Source: Alphaproteobacteria bacterium
GTDB taxonomy: Bacteria; Pseudomonadota; Alphaproteobacteria; RF32; CAG-239
Reading direction: 5' to 3'
DNA length: 64,000 nt
Assembly: GCA_045643605.1 (NCBI GenBank)
Contig: JAZULC010000010.1
Span: 96,573-160,572, forward strand
A model generated the notes under the pieces. The model was given only the letters and a program-made list of their open reading frames with translations. It was not told the DNA's origin and made no database searches. The translations under genes were made by a program, and so were the position numbers. This document shows, piece by piece, positions 3,928-33,907 of this stretch (positions are counted from its first letter, which is position 1; each line of letters begins with the position of its first letter).

Positions 3928-4721
3928 CTTATGTTATATCTCCCTTTATCACTGGCTTTGCGGTATAATCTGAAAAAATTATCAGATGTAATTTGTGCAA
4001 GTTTTTCATATTCAATATTTTTTAATTGCGCTAAAACTTCTGCTGTATGAGTAATAAACGAAGGTTCATTTCTTCTTCCACGCAAAGGAACAGGAGCTAA
4101 AAATGGGGCATCAGTTTCAATCAATAATCTTTCAAGAGGAATGTCTGCAAAAATATCCCGTATTTCTTGGCTTTTATTGAATGTGATAATACCTGATGCT
4201 GATAAATAAAAACCTATAGATAGAGCAAAATCTGCTAATTTTTTTGAGGAAGAAAAACAATGAATTTCTCCCGAAAACGGAGCGTCTTCGTACATCTCCT
4301 TCAAAATAGCAATAGTATCATCATCAGCAGATCTTGTATGTATAATCAAAGGTAAATTAGTAGCTTGTGCGGCTTTAATTTGTTCAATAAAAATTTTTTG
4401 TTGTATGTCTTTGGTTTCATAATCATAATAATAATCCAGCCCGCATTCTCCTATACCTATAACCTTATCATTTTTTGTCTTTTCAATAAACGACTCTGCT
4501 TTAATATTTGTATATTCTAAAGCATTTTCAGGATGAACTCCGACAGCTGTATAAATAAACGGAAATCTTTCAGAAATTTCCAGTTGTTGATCTAACTCAT
4601 TAATATTATTACCGGCATTTAAAATAGTGGTAATTCCTGCTTCTTTTGCTCTGATTATTATATCTTCAAAATCTTCTTCAAAATCATTATAATCAAGATG
4701 ACAATGACTATCTACTAACAT
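3915..4721 (-). CDS. tatD: TatD family deoxyribonuclease/hydrolase
   Basis: MLVDSHCHLD... N-terminal motif, GECGLDYY, and overall TatD length. Confidence 0.85.
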   Translation of the reverse strand: MLVDSHCHLDYNDFEEDFEDIIIRAKEAGITTILNAGNNINELDQQLEISERFPFIYTAVGVHPENALEYTNIKAESFIEKTKNDKVIGIGECGLDYYYDYETKDIQQKIFIEQIKAAQATNLPLIIHTRSADDDTIAILKEMYEDAPFSGEIHCFSSSKKLADFALSIGFYLSASGIITFNKSQEIRDIFADIPLERLLIETDAPFLAPVPLRGRRNEPSFITHTAEVLAQLKNIEYEKLAQITSDNFFRLYRKASDKGRYNIRCQK

Positions 4722-25330: not shown

Positions 25331-25406
25331 AGGGGTATAGCTCAGTTGGTAGAGCATCGGTCTCCAAAACCGAGTGTCGTGAGTTCGAATCTTACTGCCC
25401 CTGCCA
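25331..25406 (+). tRNA. tRNA-Trp(CCA)
   Basis: 76-nt cloverleaf: AGGGGTA acceptor, anticodon loop cTCCAaa, GTTCGAATC T-loop, 3' CCA. Confidence 0.9.
25359..25405 (+). repeat. attL core (3' half of tRNA-Trp)
   Basis: 47/47 identical to 33829..33875. Confidence 0.75.
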
Positions 25407-25695
25407 ATAATATCAAGGCTTTGAAGGTTTTTCTTCAGAGCCTTTTTTATTTGCAGGGACACTGGTGGGACAACAAAAAATATAAAATACCAATAGATGC
25501 AAAAAATATTTTCTATTCAAAATCGGCTAAAAATATAAGGCTACGATGCCCGTAGTCCCCTAAATGTCCCTCAAAAATGCGGCTTTTAAAAATGTATAAT
25601 AATTTCAAATAGATATATAGTCTGTCATTCAGTTTGTTAATCTTGTTGACATTGTTTCTTATTTATTGTAGTCTATTTGTATCAACTAAGGAGAT

Positions 25696-26763
25696 ATGAA
25701 AATGGCTTCAATAGAAAAAAGAATAAGCAAAAAAGGTGTAGTTTCTTATAGGGTAAAAATAAGACTATACGGTTATCCGGTTCAAACAGCTACATTTGAG
25801 AAATTAACACTGGCTAAAGAATGGGCTTCGAAGACAGAAACGGAAATAAAAGAAGGCAGATATTTTAACAGGTTAAAATCCCAAAAATATACTGTTTCCG
25901 ACATCATTGAGAAATATAAAAAAATGTTGAAGGCACAAAATAAATACGCAAGTACAGACTTAACAGCTCATTTTAGATGGTGGCAAGAAAATATCGGTAA
26001 ATACAGTCTTGCTGAAGTAACACCGGCGCTTATATCTGATATGAAGAATAAATTGTTGACAGAGCAAAATTCCAGAGGGCAGAATCGCTCCCCTTCCACA
26101 GTTAATCGGTATTTGACCACAATGCAAGGTGTCTTTTCTGTCGCAGTTAAGGAGTGGGAGCTTATCGATATAAACCCATTTTTTAGAGTTAAAAAGCTCA
26201 AAGAACCACAAGGTCGTATCAGATTTTTAGAAAAAGACGAAATGGAAAGATTGCTGAAAGAGTGTAAGAAGGCCGCTAATCCGTATTTATATCCTGCGGT
26301 AATTGTTGCTCTATCTACAGGTGCGAGAAAAATGGAAGTTCTTAGCCTGAAATGGGAAAATGTAGATTTACCTAATGAGCGAGCAATTCTTCAGGATACA
26401 AAGAACGGAGAAAGAAGAAGTATAAATCTGATTGGCGAAGTCAATAGCATAATAAGCGAGCTATACCATAATCGAAAACCTGATGATGTTTATGTGTTTC
26501 CAAGTCAGGATGGCAAAAAGCCTTTTGACATCATGAGAAGCTGGAGAGCTGCAATAAAGCGAGCTGGAATAGAGAATTTTAGATTTCACGATTTAAGACA
26601 TACTACAGCAAGTTATTTAGCAATGAATGGGAAATCATTAGGTGAAATTGCTGATGTATTAGGACACAAAACGTTACAAATGGTCAAGCGATATGCCCAT
26701 TTGTCGGATGCGCATAAAAAATCGCTGACAGCAGATATGAATAAAACAATTTTTGGAGAGTAA
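25696..26763 (+). CDS. int: tyrosine-type site-specific integrase (phage integrase family)
   Basis: N-terminal SAM-like domain plus C-terminal catalytic domain with R...HDLRHT...Y (ARKMEV..., FHDLRHTTASYL, LGHKTLQMVKRYAH). Confidence 0.9.
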   Translation: MKMASIEKRISKKGVVSYRVKIRLYGYPVQTATFEKLTLAKEWASKTETEIKEGRYFNRLKSQKYTVSDIIEKYKKMLKAQNKYASTDLTAHFRWWQENIGKYSLAEVTPALISDMKNKLLTEQNSRGQNRSPSTVNRYLTTMQGVFSVAVKEWELIDINPFFRVKKLKEPQGRIRFLEKDEMERLLKECKKAANPYLYPAVIVALSTGARKMEVLSLKWENVDLPNERAILQDTKNGERRSINLIGEVNSIISELYHNRKPDDVYVFPSQDGKKPFDIMRSWRAAIKRAGIENFRFHDLRHTTASYLAMNGKSLGEIADVLGHKTLQMVKRYAHLSDAHKKSLTADMNKTIFGE

Positions 26764-27751: not shown

Positions 27752-27950
27752 TTTAACCCCATTAAAGGCCATAAAACTTCGCTGTATAGATTGTTCCGGC
27801 GATGACCATCCGCGTAAATGTGTTTCAAAAAATTGCGCTCTTTATCCATTTCGCCTAGGTAAAAACACTTTGCTTTCTAAAAGAAATGTAAGCGAAAAAC
27901 AAAGAGAAATATTGCTGAAAAACATTCAAAAAAGATGGGAGAAGAGATGA
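27744..27950 (+). CDS. small Cys4 zinc-finger protein (Ogr/Delta-like late activator candidate)
   Basis: Start MNNLTPLKAIKLRCIDCSGDDHPRKCVSKNCALY... gives C-x2-C-x9-C-x4-C, with a basic C-terminus. RBS GGAGG. Confidence 0.4.
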   Translation: MNNLTPLKAIKLRCIDCSGDDHPRKCVSKNCALYPFRLGKNTLLSKRNVSEKQREILLKNIQKRWEKR

Positions 27951-28588
27951 TGAAAAAAAAGGAAAGATTTTTTTGCAACTGCATTTCCGTCAATAATCAA
28001 TCAGAAAAGGGCTTTTCATATTTTAAAAGTATAGCTAAATCAAGCAAGTCTTTAGTAAATAATAATATAATATATAATTTAAATAACATAAATATACCAC
28101 GCTGGAAGGATTTAAGTAAAGTCCAAAAGGTTGAGTTGTTTTTTGATTATATCGTTGATATTAACTGGTACGCGATAACGTTAAGATTTTCAGATGAGTT
28201 CGTTAGAGGATGTATTCATAATTTAAAAATTACAGATTTTATTCGGCGGCGTATTAATGAGAATTTCAAAAATAGGCTCGGATATGTGCCGGAATATTTA
28301 TTTTGTATTGAGTTTGATAAGACAACTTTTCATATTCATGGAGCAATAAATTCCAATAACAATATAGACCTAATCAAAAAAATATTAAAAACTACAGCAT
28401 TTAATAAAATGTATCTTAAGTTGCCGGAACAATATAAACTTCGATGTGTGATGATTTACGATGCAAAAGGATGGAAGCAATACATTCTTAAAAATCGCAA
28501 TCACCCCAGATTTGATATTTATATTTGCCGAGAAATTACGCAAAAAACAAAAGATATTTACAATAAAAGATTGAAAAATTTTTATTAG
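27935..28588 (+). CDS. putative HUH-family rolling-circle replication initiator
   Basis: Three motifs in canonical order and spacing: YAITLRF (motif 1-like), FHIHGAI (HUH, motif 2), KQYILKN (catalytic Tyr, motif 3). Confidence 0.4.
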   Translation: MGEEMMKKKERFFCNCISVNNQSEKGFSYFKSIAKSSKSLVNNNIIYNLNNINIPRWKDLSKVQKVELFFDYIVDINWYAITLRFSDEFVRGCIHNLKITDFIRRRINENFKNRLGYVPEYLFCIEFDKTTFHIHGAINSNNNIDLIKKILKTTAFNKMYLKLPEQYKLRCVMIYDAKGWKQYILKNRNHPRFDIYICREITQKTKDIYNKRLKNFY

Positions 28589-28874: not shown

Positions 28875-29486
28875 ATGATTTATGGATATGTGCGAGTTAG
28901 TACGGATAAGCAGGATTGCGAAAATCAAAAACTCGGGATAGAGCAAAAAGCAAAACAGCTTGGATTTACTATTGAAAAATACATAGAAGATGATGGAGTT
29001 TCCGGAACAAAAGAACCGGAAGAAAGACATTTGGGTAAAATACTAAAAAAAATACAGTATGGTGATGTAATTATATGCTCAGAACTCTCCAGATTAGGCA
29101 GAAAACTTTTTATGATTATGAGAATTTTGGAACATTGTATGAAGTGCGGAGCAAAAGTCTATACCGTAAAAGATAATTATGAGCTCGGAGATGATTTAGT
29201 TTCTAAAGTTTTGGCTTTTTCTTTTGGGCTTTCGGCAGAAATAGAGCGCAACCTTATAAGCCAGCGCACAAAAGAAGCTTTAGCAAGGAGGAAACTCTCC
29301 GGAAAGTACATCGGTCGTAAAAAGGGAAGTAAGAATTTACACTGCAAACTTGAAGGCAAAGACGACCAAATTAAAAAATTCCTAAATAGAAAAATATCTA
29401 AAAGCATGATTGCTAAAAACTTAAAAGTAAGCATACCTACACTTAATAAATATATTTGCGAGAAAAAACTTATAACGAAGGCTTAA
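28875..29486 (+). CDS. serine recombinase (resolvase/invertase family) with C-terminal HTH
   Basis: MIYGYVRVSTDKQD catalytic Ser motif, SRLGR, C-terminal HTH (SKSMIAKNLKVSIPTLNKYI). 203 aa, typical of Hin/Gin/Tn3-type enzymes. Confidence 0.85.
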   Translation: MIYGYVRVSTDKQDCENQKLGIEQKAKQLGFTIEKYIEDDGVSGTKEPEERHLGKILKKIQYGDVIICSELSRLGRKLFMIMRILEHCMKCGAKVYTVKDNYELGDDLVSKVLAFSFGLSAEIERNLISQRTKEALARRKLSGKYIGRKKGSKNLHCKLEGKDDQIKKFLNRKISKSMIAKNLKVSIPTLNKYICEKKLITKA

Positions 29487-29659
29487 ATTTGAAAAAATAA
29501 CAAACTTTAAATTTTGATACTTGATCATAAAATATTTGAAAAATAATAAATTTTTAGTTGCTATAATATAATTAATTATTTACTATAGGCACAAATAATT
29601 AGGGTTGGCTATTTTTTTATTTGCGGCAGCCCTTAGAGCTTTAAAATAGGGGTTGTGCT

Positions 29660-32068
29660 ATGTCGTATGCAAATAATTTACGCGAAGAAGAACTTAAAAA
29701 CAAAATAGCGAATGATTATTTCAAATCTTATGATTCAACCCAAATAATAGGAAATATCGATTTCTGTATTGCTAAATACATTGATTCTTCAGAAGGGCGG
29801 CAAGGGGCATTGTTTGATTTTGAAACAACGACTCAATCTTTTCTATGGGCAGAAGCTAAAAGGGGAACTACTCACAATATTTACGAATCTTTCGTTCAGC
29901 TAATTATGACCATCGGAAAAGCGAGAACTTTTGAAAAGTATCTTCCTCCGATTTTTTTTGGTGCTTTTGATGCAGAAAAAATAGCTTTTATCGAATATGA
30001 CACTATATCAGAAATATTTACTCAAAATGATTTCGACTGGACTATTGCCCCGTCGAATCATGAGAGCAAAGAGTTTAAGCAATTATTTAACCTCGTACAA
30101 CATGAATTAGAAAAAAAATCTTTCATATTTTATTATGATAAGGATGAAAATGAACTGAAAAAATTTATAAAAAATAATTTTGTTCTAGGCCGTAAAGGTA
30201 TTTCCCAAATTATTATTACTAAAAATAATTTTACAACGGTATATTTCAAGTGGTTGCAAGAGGTCAAGCCGACAATCAACATAAACTGGGAAAAATCTAA
30301 AAAGCACGGCATTATAGATGCTGATTTTTATTTGGCTGATTTATTGTCAGAAGATAATACTTCAATTAAAGACAGCCTATTTGTATTACTCTCTCGAAAC
30401 AAATATGAAATTGTAAAAGACAATGACAATGAACTAGGTCTGCAGTCAACTTATGATGTTTCCTTCAATGATGGTCAAAAGGCACATATTCGCTTTTGGA
30501 GTATGTATAAACGTCCTCCCCGTAAAGAATTTTGGAATTATATTGTTGAAAGGCGCGACTTATTAGTTCCTCAAGATATCCGAGAAAGAAAAGGTTCATT
30601 TTTTACTCCGCAAAAATGGGTTGAATTAAGCCAAAAATATTTAGAAGATGTTTTGGGCGAAAATTGGCAGGATGAATATTATATTTGGGATTGTTGTGCC
30701 GGAACAGGAAATATGGAAAACGGTTTAACCAATAAATATAATATTTGGGCTTCAACACTTGATAAAGCCGATGTTGATGTTATGAAAGACCGTATAAAAA
30801 ATGGAGCTAATTTGCTTGAAAGTCACGTTTTTCAGATGGACTTCTTAAATGATGATTTTGAAGATAAATGTCCGAAAGACCTGCTGGAAATAATTAATAA
30901 TCCGGAAAAAAGAAAAAAATTAGTTATTTATATTAACCCTCCTTATGCGGAAGCGACTACAGCAACAACAGTTACAGGTAATGGAGCAAATAAATCAAAA
31001 GTATCCATATCAAATAAAACTTATGAGAGGTATAAAAACTTAATAGGTAATGCCAGTAATGAACTGTTTGCGCAGTTTTTTGTTCGTATTTATAAAGAAT
31101 TATCTGGCTGTATACTTGGAGAATTTTCAACTTTGAAAATTCTCCAATCGAGCAACTTTTCCAAGTTTCGTAAAATATTTTTAGCAGACTTAAAAAAAAT
31201 GTTTGTCGTTCCGGCAAACACTTTTGATAATGTTAAAGGACAATTTCCGATTGGTTTTATGATTTGGGATACTACCAACAAAACAGAATTTATATCTAAA
31301 CAATCAGATGTTTATGATAAAAATGCAGTAGAATTAGCAAGTAAAACTTTTTATACTCTTGATGCAAACAGAGGAACAATAAATAGGTGGATAAAATTAA
31401 TAGAAAAACAAGGTGAAAGTACAATTGGGTTTTTGCCAAACCCAGCACCTGATTATCAGAATAATAATTATCTATTTTTGACTATTCTATGTGGTTCTAG
31501 GCACGTCAATTATACACCTATTAATACTTTTACCTTATTAAGTTGTTGTCTATACTTTTCCGTTCGTCATTGTATTGAAGCTACGTGGCTGAATGATAGA
31601 GACCAATTCTTATACCCGAATGATGGATGGCAAGATGATAAAGAGTTCCAATCTGATTGTTTAGCTTTTACTCTTTTTCATGGTCAAAACCGTATAAAAT
31701 CTCAAGATGGCATAAATCACTGGATTCCATTTACTGAAAAGGAAGTAGAACCATTAAATTCTTTCGAAAGTCATTTTATGACTGATTATATAAAGGAAAA
31801 TCAGATTGTATTTTCCAATGCTGCGCAAGTTGTTTTTGCTGCCGGAAGAGAATTATGGAGATATTACCACAAGCAACCAAATGCTAATCCTGATGCAAGT
31901 TTTTATGATATTCGCGCTTATTTCCAAGGAATAGATAAAAGCGGAAAAATGAATAAGGATAGCCAAGATAAAATGTATATGGAACTTATATCTGATTTGC
32001 GTAAAAAAGAGAGAGCTCTGGCGGAAAAAATATCTGAAAAAGTTTATGAATACGGATTTTTAAAATGA
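29660..32068 (+). CDS. fused restriction endonuclease / N6-adenine DNA methyltransferase, Type IIL/IIG (MmeI-like) candidate
   Basis: N-terminal PD-(D/E)xK-like motif (LFDFETT...LWAEAKRG). Gamma-class MTase motifs in order: X (GSFFTPQKWVELSQ), I (WDCCAGTGNMENG), IV (VIYINPPYAE). About 300 aa follow, consistent with a TRD. Confidence 0.55.
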   Translation: MSYANNLREEELKNKIANDYFKSYDSTQIIGNIDFCIAKYIDSSEGRQGALFDFETTTQSFLWAEAKRGTTHNIYESFVQLIMTIGKARTFEKYLPPIFFGAFDAEKIAFIEYDTISEIFTQNDFDWTIAPSNHESKEFKQLFNLVQHELEKKSFIFYYDKDENELKKFIKNNFVLGRKGISQIIITKNNFTTVYFKWLQEVKPTININWEKSKKHGIIDADFYLADLLSEDNTSIKDSLFVLLSRNKYEIVKDNDNELGLQSTYDVSFNDGQKAHIRFWSMYKRPPRKEFWNYIVERRDLLVPQDIRERKGSFFTPQKWVELSQKYLEDVLGENWQDEYYIWDCCAGTGNMENGLTNKYNIWASTLDKADVDVMKDRIKNGANLLESHVFQMDFLNDDFEDKCPKDLLEIINNPEKRKKLVIYINPPYAEATTATTVTGNGANKSKVSISNKTYERYKNLIGNASNELFAQFFVRIYKELSGCILGEFSTLKILQSSNFSKFRKIFLADLKKMFVVPANTFDNVKGQFPIGFMIWDTTNKTEFISKQSDVYDKNAVELASKTFYTLDANRGTINRWIKLIEKQGESTIGFLPNPAPDYQNNNYLFLTILCGSRHVNYTPINTFTLLSCCLYFSVRHCIEATWLNDRDQFLYPNDGWQDDKEFQSDCLAFTLFHGQNRIKSQDGINHWIPFTEKEVEPLNSFESHFMTDYIKENQIVFSNAAQVVFAAGRELWRYYHKQPNANPDASFYDIRAYFQGIDKSGKMNKDSQDKMYMELISDLRKKERALAEKISEKVYEYGFLK

Positions 32069-33828: not shown

Positions 33829-33875
33829 TCTCCAAAACCGAGTGTCGTGAGTTCGAATCTTACTGCCCCTGCCAA
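33829..33875 (+). repeat. attR (duplicated 3' half of tRNA-Trp)
   Basis: 47/47 identical to 25359..25405. Confidence 0.75.
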
Positions 33876-33882
33876 AATAAAA

Positions 33883-33907
33883 ATCGCCAGAAATGGCGAT
33901 TTTTTTA
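33883..33907 (+). terminator. rho-independent terminator (probably the original tRNA-Trp terminator, displaced by the insertion)
   Basis: atcgcca-gaaa-tggcgat followed by TTTTTTT, immediately after attR. Confidence 0.45.

What the first reader, a model, noticed from the sequence alone, without database searches (positions are those of the whole stretch)
28875..32068. Serine recombinase immediately upstream of an 802-aa fused nuclease/MTase (Type IIL/IIG-like) as island cargo
The 802-aa ORF has a PD-(D/E)xK-like motif (FDFE...EAK), then gamma-class N6-A MTase motifs X (GSFFTP), I (DCCAGTGN) and IV (NPPY), then a putative TRD. This is an MmeI-like single-chain RM architecture and would act as anti-phage defence carried by the satellite. 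A Hin/Gin/resolvase-type serine recombinase lies 173 bp upstream on the same strand. Such pairs sometimes drive phase variation of RM specificity or expression. The 29487..29659 spacer holds a TATAAT-containing promoter and an imperfect 18-nt direct repeat (atttgaaaaaataacaaa and atttgaaaaataataaat).
Basis: partly seen in the sequence, partly recalled or inferred. Interest (0 to 1): 0.65.

Follow-up and report, generated by a model that had tools for sequence, protein, structure and literature searches.

The report
Restriction gene with a flipping palindrome
An unannotated one-protein restriction-modification enzyme carried by a small phage-satellite island sits next to a DNA invertase that has nothing to invert here, but the enzyme gene holds a perfect palindrome whose two central bases keep flipping, which swaps one amino acid beside the active site.

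Summary
The ORFs, the 173-bp spacer and the methyltransferase motifs are real. The 802-aa protein belongs to a large 'hypothetical' family with no Pfam match (at least 8,000 proteins, at least 547 species). It has an invariant D34...E65-x-K67...Q80 nuclease signature, a gamma-class N6-adenine methyltransferase core and swappable specificity modules. Its AlphaFold model matches Type IIG/IIL enzymes (BpuSI, DrdV, MmeI). It is a solitary, self-contained RM gene, here cargo of an 8.47-kb tRNA-Trp island with an integrase and a TerS. The recombinase belongs to the Mpi-like invertase clade, which elsewhere borders inverted-repeat shufflons of Eco57I/TaqI_C RM genes. Here there is no inverted repeat, silent cassette or cognate site, and none of 87 homologous RM loci has such a recombinase. 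Inversion-driven phase variation is therefore not supported at this locus. Unexpectedly, the RM gene carries a perfect palindrome (31116-31147). Homologues have arms up to 23 nt and always a 2-nt centre. That centre flips CT<->AG between otherwise identical genes, toggling Thr/Lys491. Among near-identical alleles, 18-46% differ there, against 0% in a clade without the palindrome. The likeliest cause is template-switch spacer inversion. Whether it is a selected switch remains open.

The parts
25331..25407 (+). tRNA-Trp (CCA) with attL: its 3' 47 nt (25361-25407) are the left copy of the island's direct repeat
   Evidence: ARAGORN; perfect 47-nt direct repeat D2; Rfam tRNA
25696..26763 (+). Tyrosine integrase of the island
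   Evidence: PF00589 E 1.2e-32; phrog_1 integrase E 1.1e-71
28875..29486 (+). Small serine recombinase (203 aa) of the Mpi-like DNA-invertase clade. The catalytic YVRVSTDKQ motif is intact. No substrate site was found in the window.
   Evidence: PF00239; NF009949 at 268.7 bits against a cut-off of 272; phrog_125 DNA invertase E 5.8e-43; alignment; contexts of relatives
29487..29659 (+). 173-bp spacer. It holds the extended -10 TGCTATAAT (29558-29566) and two low-complexity ATTTGAAAAA-led repeats (29487, 29534).
   Evidence: Sequence read; 10-mer frequency not above chance; no inverted repeat of note
29660..32068 (+). 802-aa single-chain RM enzyme of a family with no Pfam match (Type IIG/IIL-like architecture)
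29660..30064 (+). N-terminal PD-(D/E)xK-type nuclease domain (aa 1-135): D34 (29759-29761), E65 (29852-29854), K67 (29858-29860), Q80 (29897-29899)
   Evidence: All four residues invariant in 127 sequences down to 32% identity. The AF2 model gives helix 9-20, strands 35-38 and 60-66, helix 74-88, strands 99-103 and 107-112. A distant member has a weak Cas4 hit, and one homologue carries a JGI 'RecB-superfamily nuclease' label.
30593..30946 (+). Gamma-class N6-adenine methyltransferase motifs: X GSFFTP (30593-30610), I DCCAGTGN (30689-30712), IV NPPY (30935-30946)
   Evidence: Invariant columns; sub-threshold N6_Mtase hits in 10 of 42 relatives; fold matches
30956..31012 (+). Variable loop module after NPPY (aa 433-451), swapped together with the TRD on otherwise identical backbones
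31116..31147 (.). Perfect palindrome TTGGAGAATTTTCAA-CT-TTGAAAATTCTCCAA (15-nt arms). The centre CT (31131-31132) is the last two bases of codon T491 (ACT, 31130-32). The centre flips to AG (Lys) in near-identical homologues.
31283..31561 (+). Hypervariable target-recognition module (aa 542-634)
   Evidence: Highest column entropy, 2.3-2.8 bits; block boundaries 534/542 to 634/637 on backbones at least 98.5% identical
31562..32068 (+). Conserved helical C-terminal domain (aa 635-802) and the stop codon
33178..33621 (+). Terminase small-subunit homologue, a hallmark of a phage-satellite island
   Evidence: phrog_4102 E 1.9e-20
33829..33875 (.). attR: the right copy of the 47-nt direct repeat

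Best explanation
The 802-aa ORF is a self-contained, single-polypeptide restriction-modification enzyme of a very large family that has never been annotated. From N- to C-terminus it has a PD-(D/E)xK nuclease (D34, E65-x-K67, Q80), a helical linker, a gamma-class N6-adenine DNA methyltransferase (motifs X, I, IV), two exchangeable specificity modules (aa 433-451 and 542-634) and a conserved helical C-terminus. It most likely works like a Type IIG/IIL enzyme: one specificity module directs both methylation of host DNA and cleavage of unmethylated invading DNA. Here it protects the host and the 8.47-kb tRNA-Trp-integrated satellite that carries it (this step is inferred).

The upstream serine recombinase belongs to the Mpi-like invertase clade, whose members elsewhere flip 3' halves of Eco57I/TaqI_C RM genes. 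At this locus it has no inverted repeats or cognate site, so it is not coupled to the RM gene by inversion. It is most likely a stranded or trans-acting invertase that travelled with defence cargo (inferred).

The RM gene has its own hypermutable element. This is a perfect palindrome in the coding sequence (31116-31147) whose 2-bp centre inverts (CT<->AG), switching residue 491 between Thr and Lys. By model topology that residue lies at the end of the beta-strand neighbouring the NPPY strand. The flip itself is shown by comparative data. Its mechanism is inferred to be recombinase-independent template switching between the palindrome arms during replication (IR spacer inversion). Whether Thr/Lys changes enzyme behaviour is unknown.
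For: RM enzyme. Motifs X, I and IV and D34/E65/K67/Q80 are invariant in 127 sequences, and in a 42-sequence set down to 31% identity D34 and K67 stay invariant while E65 and Q80 are conserved in at least 90%. The AF2 model has pLDDT 85.3 and an alpha/beta nuclease-like N-terminus. The best Foldseek matches are Type IIG BpuSI (9.4e-11, 620 columns), Type IIL DrdV and MmeI, BsaXI, CamA, M.BseCI and Type ISP LlaBIII. The specificity block is hypervariable, and 25 pairs are at least 90% identical in the backbone but under 35% identical in the TRD, for example P0105/P0108 at 100% against 29%. The block boundaries are given. No neighbour is conserved in 87 loci. In three loci a methyltransferase-only paralogue (aa 300-802) sits beside the full-length gene. 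Some copies lie in defence contexts.

Island.

Recombinase clade. At least 550 metagenome loci encode a relative. Of 81 loci examined, 35 have inverted repeats abutting the gene. Of 50 downstream genes, 11 have TaqI_C, 5 Eco57I, 2 MmeI_Mtase and 1 EcoRI methylase domains. In L091 and L148, 3' halves of methyltransferase genes starting near NPPY have inverted copies 2.4-4 kb away. A conserved shufflon site is shared by many of these loci. Literature.

No coupling here.

Palindrome. It is the longest perfect palindrome in the window. Of 41 palindromes found in 88 family genes, 36 lie at the same position, against 6 in shuffled genes. Twenty-eight of 92 gene copies have arms of 13-23 nt, always with a 2-nt spacer. 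The centre is CT or AG in 26 of those 28, whereas palindrome-less genes use AAA, ACA, AAG or ACT. The arms contain no G:T pairs, and changes in them covary even when they alter amino acids. Third-codon-position identity is 0.94 in the palindrome core and 0.43 elsewhere. L170 and L171 differ at 3 of 4,397 nt, two of which are CT->AG at the centre. The L169 and L004 genes differ only by CT->AG. Of 1,107 near-identical protein pairs, 298 differ at this residue. In a palindrome-less clade, 0 of 219 pairs do. Template-switch spacer inversion, including 2-bp spacers in coding DNA, is documented in yeast (PMC8604942).
Confidence: 0.65

Rival explanations
1. One reading: the adjacent serine recombinase inverts the promoter or the TRD-coding part of the RM gene, giving phase-variable expression or specificity at this locus.
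For: The recombinase scores 268.7 bits on the Mpi master-invertase model. Relatives abut inverted repeats in 35 of 81 loci, and many of those repeats lie in Eco57I/TaqI_C RM genes. The enrichment is published.
Against: Around 28.4-30.4 kb and across the island only weak AT-rich inverted repeats are found. tblastn finds no second partial copy of the gene on either strand of the window. A PWM of the shufflon site scores at most 6.0 in the window, against a training minimum of 13.7. The Mpi motif is not enriched. None of 87 homologous RM loci has a related recombinase, and only 3 of 87 have any inverted repeat touching the gene.
Confidence: 0.07
2. The palindrome is a crossover site for this or another serine recombinase, and the enzyme causes the centre flip or uses the site to exchange specificity cassettes.
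For: The site is dyad-symmetric with a strict 2-bp centre, like hix, gix and res site I (my knowledge of those systems). The centre is restricted to one dinucleotide and its reverse complement. The outer arm GGAGAATTTT loosely resembles the shufflon-site half GGAGGATTTTT. The window is the one place where the two features are adjacent.
Against: The flip occurs in loci with no recombinase within 8 kb, such as L004 and L169 inside the dcw cluster, and L170/L171. The 81 recombinase-family loci do not carry the palindrome. The PWM ranks the palindrome 138th at -11 bits. By the subunit-rotation chemistry of serine recombinases, as I understand it, a 2-nt overhang cannot be religated in inverted form. 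Cassette boundaries (433, 534/542, 634) do not coincide with the palindrome.
Confidence: 0.08
3. The palindrome is a neutral, self-perpetuating mutational hotspot. Template switching both perfects the arms and flips the spacer, and Thr and Lys are simply the two tolerated outcomes. It has no switching function.
For: Arm homogenisation and spacer inversion are known by-products of template switching. T or K is the residue in 405 of 406 family proteins, including palindrome-less clades. Many lineages have lost the palindrome without losing the gene. A frequent flip combined with protein-level selection would by itself restrict the centre to CT/AG.
Against: The palindrome has persisted across phyla at about 55% protein identity, with third-position identity of 0.94. 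Its arms were kept complementary at the cost of amino-acid changes such as E488 to D, A or I. Long perfect palindromes are usually counter-selected in bacteria (my knowledge). RM genes are classic contingency loci.
Confidence: 0.4
4. The 802-aa protein is not a restriction enzyme. It is instead an orphan or regulatory DNA methyltransferase, or part of another defence type, and its N-terminal domain is not a DNA-cleaving nuclease.
For: No curated RM model is matched. Methyltransferases without nuclease activity (CamA, M.BseCI) are among the best fold matches. In Paludibacteraceae the gene sits inside the dcw cell-division cluster.
Against: D34/E65/K67/Q80 are invariant in 127 sequences. Nuclease-less paralogues exist as separate genes beside full-length ones (lengths). 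The top fold match is the Type IIG enzyme BpuSI, over 620 columns. Specificity-module swapping is typical of restriction under phage pressure (inference).
Confidence: 0.15
5. The recombinase serves the island itself, for example by resolving multimers of the excised, replicating satellite. Its position next to the RM gene is incidental.
For: The island encodes a weak Rep-like protein (PF23343, E 0.0028), an integrase and a TerS, so a circular replicative form is plausible. Small serine recombinases often act as resolvases (my knowledge).
Against: No res-like array of repeats was found near the gene. Its clade is dominated by invertase contexts. No related island was found for comparison.
Confidence: 0.2

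Closest known systems
Type IIG restriction-modification enzymes (BpuSI, PDB 3S1S; Eco57I family)
   Same: One polypeptide with an N-terminal PD-(D/E)xK nuclease, a gamma-class N6-adenine methyltransferase and a C-terminal specificity region. BpuSI is the best structural match (E 9.4e-11, 620 aligned columns). A companion methyltransferase-only gene is present in some loci, as for Eco57I (my knowledge).
   Different: There is no sequence-level membership: no Eco57I, N6_Mtase or TaqI_C Pfam hit for this protein, and only sub-threshold hits in relatives. It is shorter (about 800 aa). The variable specificity module is only about 90 aa plus a 19-aa loop. The C-terminal helical domain is conserved.
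Type IIL enzymes MmeI and DrdV (PDB 5HR4, 7LO5)
   Same: The domain order is the same and the gene is solitary. Specificity changes through exchange of a few segments. Both are fold matches (E 8e-7 and 5e-8).
   Different: None of the MmeI-specific Pfam domains is matched. Sequence identity is 8-12%. Single-strand methylation and cleavage at a fixed distance were not tested.
Programmed inversions of Eco57I/Cj0031-type RM genes next to Mpi-family serine invertases (Milman et al. 2023, PMC9881135)
   Same: The recombinase belongs to this clade. Its relatives show exactly this architecture in L088, L091, L148, L155 and L157.
   Different: At this locus there are no inverted repeats or silent cassettes, and the RM gene belongs to another family.
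Inverted-repeat spacer inversion by polymerase template switching (yeast SPO75, YBZ1; PMC8604942)
   Same: A perfect intragenic inverted repeat with a 2-bp spacer flips back and forth and swaps one amino acid, and the arms stay homogenised.
   Different: The arms here reach 23 nt, against about 10-16 nt in yeast. The element is conserved at one position of a horizontally spreading prokaryotic defence gene across phyla. The flip is near equilibrium among near-identical alleles.
Phage-inducible chromosomal islands (PICI-like satellites)
   Same: A small island of 8.47 kb in a tRNA gene, with an integrase at one end, a TerS homologue at the other, no capsid or tail genes, and defence cargo.
   Different: No helper phage, excision or packaging data exist. 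The replication module is only weakly recognisable. No related island was found.

Membership tests
Type IIG/IIL single-chain RM enzymes | N-terminal PD-(D/E)xK endonuclease domain with catalytic D...(D/E)xK | tested here: met
   D34, E65-x-K67 and Q80 are invariant in 127 sequences. The model shows helix-strand-strand-helix-strand-strand around them. No solved nuclease was found by sequence, so homology of the fold is inferred.
Type IIG/IIL single-chain RM enzymes | Gamma-class N6-adenine methyltransferase, motif order X-I-IV, fused in the same chain | tested here: met
   GSFFTP, DCCAGTGN and NPPY occur in that order and are invariant. The fold matches gamma-class DNA methyltransferases.
Type IIG/IIL single-chain RM enzymes | Variable target-recognition domain after the methyltransferase core | tested here: met
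   Entropy peaks at aa 541-620, and modules are swapped on identical backbones.
Type IIG/IIL single-chain RM enzymes | Site-specific methylation and cleavage at a distance from the site | not testable with these tools
   This needs enzymology or a methylome.
MmeI family / Eco57I family (Pfam PF20464-PF20473, PF07669, PF12950) | Match to the family's curated sequence models | tested here: not met
   The window protein has no Pfam hit at E<=1. Among 42 relatives, 10 give sub-threshold N6_Mtase hits and 1 a sub-threshold Eco57I hit.
Hin/Gin/Mpi-type serine DNA invertases | Resolvase-type catalytic domain with the nucleophile Ser in Y-x-R-V-S-T-x-x-Q, and full-length similarity including the C-terminal DNA-binding part | tested here: met
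   YVRVSTDKQ at aa 5-13; PF00239 over aa 2-145; NF009949 aligned over 1-199 of 203; phrog_125 'DNA invertase'.
Hin/Gin/Mpi-type serine DNA invertases | A pair of inverted crossover sites flanking an invertible segment near the gene | tested here: not met
   for the window. The feature is met in 35 of 81 loci of relatives.
Mpi family (NCBIfam NF009949) | Score at or above the curated cut-off, and the Mpi inverted-repeat motif ARACGTWCGT at its targets | tested here: not met
   268.7 bits against a cut-off of 272. The motif gives 10 hits against 7.0 expected.
Phage satellite (PICI-like) | tRNA-integrated island under 15 kb with an integrase, att repeats and a packaging-hijack gene (TerS), and no virion structural genes | tested here: met
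   No structural-protein PHROG hit among the 10 island proteins scanned.
Phage satellite (PICI-like) | Helper-phage-dependent excision, replication and packaging | not testable with these tools
   Experimental.
Template-switch IR spacer inversion | Perfect arms; the two alleles differ only by the reverse complement of the spacer; events recur on a tree | tested here: met
Template-switch IR spacer inversion | Dependence on replication and on arm complementarity, independence of site-specific recombinases | not testable with these tools
   Indirect only: the flips occur in loci without nearby recombinases.

The most novel reading that the evidence does not exclude
The intragenic palindrome is a selected, recombinase-independent contingency switch, a '2-bp inverton'. 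Bacteria of several phyla would keep a perfect 30-48-bp palindrome inside a restriction-modification gene so that replication flips its central dinucleotide at high frequency. That toggles Thr/Lys491 beside the catalytic cleft, and with it the activity or specificity of the enzyme. It would be a new class of phase variation that inverton finders and SSR scans cannot see.
Probability: 0.3. Interest if true: 0.9.

Novelty: new variant of a known kind. Interest (0 to 1): 0.72.

Why it matters
First, thousands of gut, rumen and environmental genomes, including cultured Brachyspira and Riemerella, carry an RM enzyme family that every source examined here labels 'hypothetical'. Recognising it adds a widespread barrier to gene flow. 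It also offers a compact, modular scaffold of about 800 aa with naturally swapped specificity modules for enzyme engineering.

Second, a phage satellite carrying it is another case of satellites delivering defence.

Third, the flipping palindrome shows a heritable, reversible, two-nucleotide switch in a defence gene that needs no recombinase and no repeat tract. If it is functional, it widens the catalogue of phase-variation mechanisms. If it is neutral, it is a clear prokaryotic example of template-switch spacer inversion running near equilibrium. It also warns that 'double SNPs' at palindrome centres are single events.

Either reading can be tested directly with existing metagenome reads and a simple cloning experiment.

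Tried and rejected
- **Inverted repeats:** I searched the spacer, the gene, the island and 20 kb around them. Only weak AT-rich matches and the palindrome turned up.
- **Mpi motif:** ARACGTWCGT is not enriched.
- **Shufflon site:** I derived the site of the recombinase clade (GGAGGATTTTTCTAARCMRAAAAT, coding [YW]WEDFSK[QP]KI) and scanned the window with a pattern and a PWM. There was no site, and the palindrome scores -11 bits. I therefore dropped the idea that the palindrome is this clade's crossover site, despite a loose half-site resemblance.
- **Palindrome as cassette boundary:** rejected. The boundaries lie at aa 433, 534/542 and 634.
- **RNA-structure reading:** disfavoured. The arms contain no G:T pairs, pairing ends abruptly, and there is no Rfam match.
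- **Conserved partner gene:** none exists. The 182-aa ORF downstream is specific to the Paludibacteraceae loci examined.
- **Sequence searches of PDB:** the protein, the family profile and the N-terminal profile gave no RM or nuclease hit. They gave only a spurious-looking Rab GTPase similarity.
- **Related islands:** no island protein has a homologue in any fetched locus.
- **Assembly artefact for the flip:** considered and rejected. Both flanks are intact, the palindrome is shorter than the assemblers' k-mers where contig names give one (k109, k141), and both states recur across samples and pipelines. This is an inference.

Full report
**What is at the coordinates**

ORF 28875-29486 (+, 203 aa) and ORF 29660-32068 (+, 802 aa) are separated by 173 bp. 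They lie inside an 8.47-kb island bounded by a perfect 47-nt direct repeat (25361-25407 and 33829-33875). The left copy of the repeat is the 3' part of tRNA-Trp.

The island starts with a tyrosine integrase (PF00589). It ends with a terminase small-subunit homologue (phrog_4102, E 1.9e-20). No virion structural gene was detected among the ten island proteins scanned. It is therefore a PICI-like satellite by gene content. GC content is about 31%, like the surroundings. The closest relatives of the big gene come from uncultured gut and rumen Alphaproteobacteria.

**The 802-aa protein**

The protein matches no Pfam, PADLOC or PHROG model and no PDB sequence. Its only hit is a weak PrmC match over aa 337-442. 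Even so, it has more than 8,000 homologues in the protein collection. Almost all are labelled 'hypothetical' or carry no name.

The family has 2,433 representatives at 50% clustering. At least 547 species genomes encode a relative. These include Alphaproteobacteria, Bacteroidota, Thermoguttaceae, Brachyspira, Treponema, Fibrobacter and Riemerella, and the family also reaches Aenigmatarchaeota.

In 127 aligned sequences the following are invariant: D34, E65, K67, Q80, the cores of GSFFTP and DCCAGTGN, and NPP of NPPY. D34 is the conserved acidic residue.

With this alignment AlphaFold gives pLDDT 85.3. The N-terminus has helix 9-20, strands 35-38 and 60-66, helix 74-88, and strands 99-103 and 107-112. 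The invariant residues sit where a PD-(D/E)xK site would place them. A first model from 29 sequences was poor (pLDDT 67.5).

Foldseek against the PDB returns these matches:
- Type IIG BpuSI first (9.4e-11, 620 columns)
- Type IIL DrdV and MmeI
- BsaXI
- the DNA adenine methyltransferases CamA and M.BseCI
- Type ISP LlaBIII

TM-scores are low (0.2-0.3), as expected for multi-domain proteins with different domain packing. Ten of 42 distant relatives give sub-threshold N6_Mtase hits. One gives a weak Cas4 hit on its N-terminus.

**Specificity modules**

Column entropy peaks at aa 541-620 and 441-460. On backbones at least 98.5% identical, two blocks are exchanged: aa 433-451 and aa 534/542-634. 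P0105 and P0108 are 100% identical outside the middle region and 29% identical in the TRD. This is the behaviour of a target-recognition module under diversifying exchange.

The gene has no conserved neighbour in 87 loci, so it is a one-gene system. In three loci a paralogue covering only aa 300-802 sits next to the full-length gene. That paralogue has the methyltransferase and TRD but no nuclease domain. Proteins of 490-546 aa with this extent are common among the representatives. This looks like the companion methyltransferases of some Type IIG/IIS systems.

I conclude that this is a Type IIG/IIL-like RM enzyme of a new sequence family. The architecture and the conservation are shown. The activity is inferred.

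**The recombinase**

It has the resolvase catalytic domain with the YVRVSTDKQ motif. It scores 268.7 bits on the NCBIfam 'master DNA invertase Mpi' model, just under the cut-off of 272, and it matches the PHROG 'DNA invertase' family.

More than 550 metagenome loci encode relatives that are 50-70% identical. Among the 81 loci examined:
- 35 have inverted repeats of 20-700 bp directly next to the gene.
- Of 50 genes just downstream, 11 carry TaqI_C, 5 Eco57I, 2 MmeI_Mtase and 1 EcoRI-methylase domains.
- In L091 and L148 the ORF that starts 17-18 nt after the recombinase is the 3' half of an Eco57I-type methyltransferase, from the NPPY region onward, plus TaqI_C. An inverted copy of its start lies 2.4-4 kb away.
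- About 25 loci share a shufflon site, GGAGGATTTTTCTAARCMRAAAAT, present in both orientations.

The closest relative (L089, 71% identity) is next to an EcoRI-type methyltransferase and a PLD nuclease. L090 is next to an Mrr/ResIII protein.

This agrees with Milman et al. (PMC9881135).

**But not for this locus**

The spacer, the gene and the island contain only weak AT-rich inverted matches. No second, partial copy of the RM gene exists on either strand of the 64-kb window. The shufflon site is absent: the best PWM score is 6.0, against a training minimum of 13.7. The Mpi motif is at chance level.

None of 87 loci with a homologous RM gene has a related recombinase within 6-8 kb. None of 81 recombinase loci has a member of the RM family. 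The 18-nt direct repeat in the spacer is low-complexity and not above chance. The extended -10 TGCTATAAT at 29558-29566 is plausible as the RM gene's own promoter, although promoter-like matches are common in this AT-rich DNA.

The recombinase is best seen as a stranded or trans-acting invertase that travels with defence cargo. A role in resolving satellite multimers cannot be excluded.

**The unexpected element**

Window 31116-31147 reads TTGGAGAATTTTCAA-CT-TTGAAAATTCTCCAA. It is a perfect palindrome with 15-nt arms and a 2-nt centre, and it is the longest in the window. It encodes L486-S497, and the centre forms the last two bases of codon T491 (ACT).

Its DNA hairpin energy is -12.8 kcal/mol (z -6.3). 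A 23-nt-arm homologue gives -21.4 kcal/mol.

The palindrome recurs at the same place in the family:
- Of 41 perfect palindromes with arms of at least 10 nt in 88 family genes, 36 lie at this relative position. Shuffled genes give 6 in all.
- In 92 gene copies, 28 have perfect arms of 13-23 nt, always with a 2-nt spacer.
- The arms end abruptly and contain no G:T pairs, which points to a DNA-level rather than an RNA-level feature.
- Arm sequences differ between lineages but stay complementary, even when that changes amino acids. For example, E488 to D, A or I is paired with a matching codon change at I494 in the other arm (to N or T, or silently ATT to ATA).
- Among distant palindrome-bearing genes, third-codon-position identity is 0.94 in the core. 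It is 0.43 elsewhere, including the catalytic motifs.

**The centre flips**

In palindrome-bearing genes the centre is CT (14) or AG (12) in 26 of 28 cases. Genes without the palindrome use AAA, ACA, AAG, ACT or ACG. CT and AG are reverse complements, and they give Thr (ACT) or Lys (AAG).

The comparative evidence:
- Among 406 family proteins the residue is T (220) or K (185).
- Of 1,107 full-length pairs at least 97% identical, 298 differ at this residue. Three pairs differ nowhere else.
- At the DNA level, L170 and L171 (4,397 nt, two samples) differ at three positions, two of which are the adjacent CT->AG. The 2,448-nt genes of L169 and L004 differ only by CT->AG. Neither locus has a recombinase nearby.
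- The fraction of pairs that differ rises from 0.18 at 0-1 mismatches to 0.46-0.48 at more than 9 mismatches, that is, toward equilibrium. In the Brachyspira clade, whose four genes examined at the DNA level (L028, L029, L034, L043) lack the palindrome, 0 of 219 pairs with at most 24 mismatches differ.

The flip is therefore a recurrent, fast, palindrome-dependent event.

**Mechanism**

Inversion of a short spacer between perfect inverted repeats by intermolecular polymerase template switching is documented. So is homogenisation of the arms. Examples include 2-bp spacers that toggle one amino acid in yeast genes (PMC8604942). That model explains four things:
- the perfect arms
- the covariation
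- the reverse-complement alleles
- the restriction of the centre to CT/AG: with frequent flipping, both orientations must encode a tolerated residue, and CA would give Met while AA would give Ile

A serine recombinase is an unlikely agent, for the reasons given under the rival explanations. Residue 491 follows the beta-strand 485-490, which by methyltransferase topology neighbours the NPPY strand (inference). A functional effect of Thr against Lys is therefore plausible but untested. Whether the palindrome is selected as a contingency switch or is a self-maintaining hotspot cannot be decided here. I give the selected-switch reading about 0.3.

**Comparison with the known, and verdict**

The enzyme works like a Type IIG/IIL RM enzyme but fails the sequence-model membership tests for the MmeI and Eco57I families. 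It is a new family of a known kind. The recombinase is a member of a known invertase clade, without its usual substrate. The satellite context is known in kind. I found no literature on the palindrome in bacteria or RM genes. Its presumed mechanism is known from yeast.

Overall this is a new variant of known kinds, with one surprising feature that is worth an experiment.

Noticed in passing
L004 8001-11041, L169 1001-4041, L014, L016: In Paludibacteraceae the RM gene and a 182-aa ORF of unknown function are inserted inside the dcw cell-division cluster, between murG and murC. This is an odd place for a defence gene.
   Followed up: partly
L068 8555-10135, L078 2764-4338, L082 1841-8406: Methyltransferase-only paralogues (aa 300-802, no nuclease domain) lie directly beside full-length genes. 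L082 has two full-length genes plus one short gene in tandem.
   Followed up: partly
L089-L168 (recombinase loci): About 19 of 80 metagenome contigs begin less than 450 nt upstream of the recombinase gene. This is the pattern expected if assemblies break at invertible or variable DNA next to it.
   Followed up: no
L088 1572-9395 (IMG/VR contig): In a prophage, a 51%-identical recombinase lies after a tail tip (J-like) gene and before an Eco57I-type methylase and an N6_Mtase fragment. A DUF1016/YhcG nuclease gene lies upstream. This recalls both Mu gin-mom and the Cj0031-type inversion loci in the literature.
   Followed up: partly
window 31202-31510 (aa 515-617 of the 802-aa protein): The family profile hits Rab/Ras GTPases at E of about 1e-3 around the 'IWDT' block, and one homologue carries a precomputed Ras Pfam label. 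This is probably a chance similarity.
   Followed up: no
window 33879-33904: A 26-nt palindrome, AAAAATCGCCAGAAATGGCGATTTTT, lies 4 nt after attR. It could be a terminator-like hairpin or part of the attachment region.
   Followed up: no
window 29602-29634: An imperfect G+C-rich stem (AGGGTTGGC...GCGGCAGCCCT) lies in the 5' leader of the RM gene, about 25 nt before the start codon. It was not analysed.
   Followed up: no
L078 about 2345-2373 and 4043-4071; L068 8129-8161 and 9822-9854: In this lineage a second intragenic palindrome (14-nt arms, 1-nt spacer) sits at about 88% of the gene length, in both the full-length gene and its paralogue.
   Followed up: no
window 27935-28588: This 217-aa island ORF has only a weak match to a replication-associated ORF2/G2P domain (E 0.0028). 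The island's replication module is essentially unrecognised.
   Followed up: no
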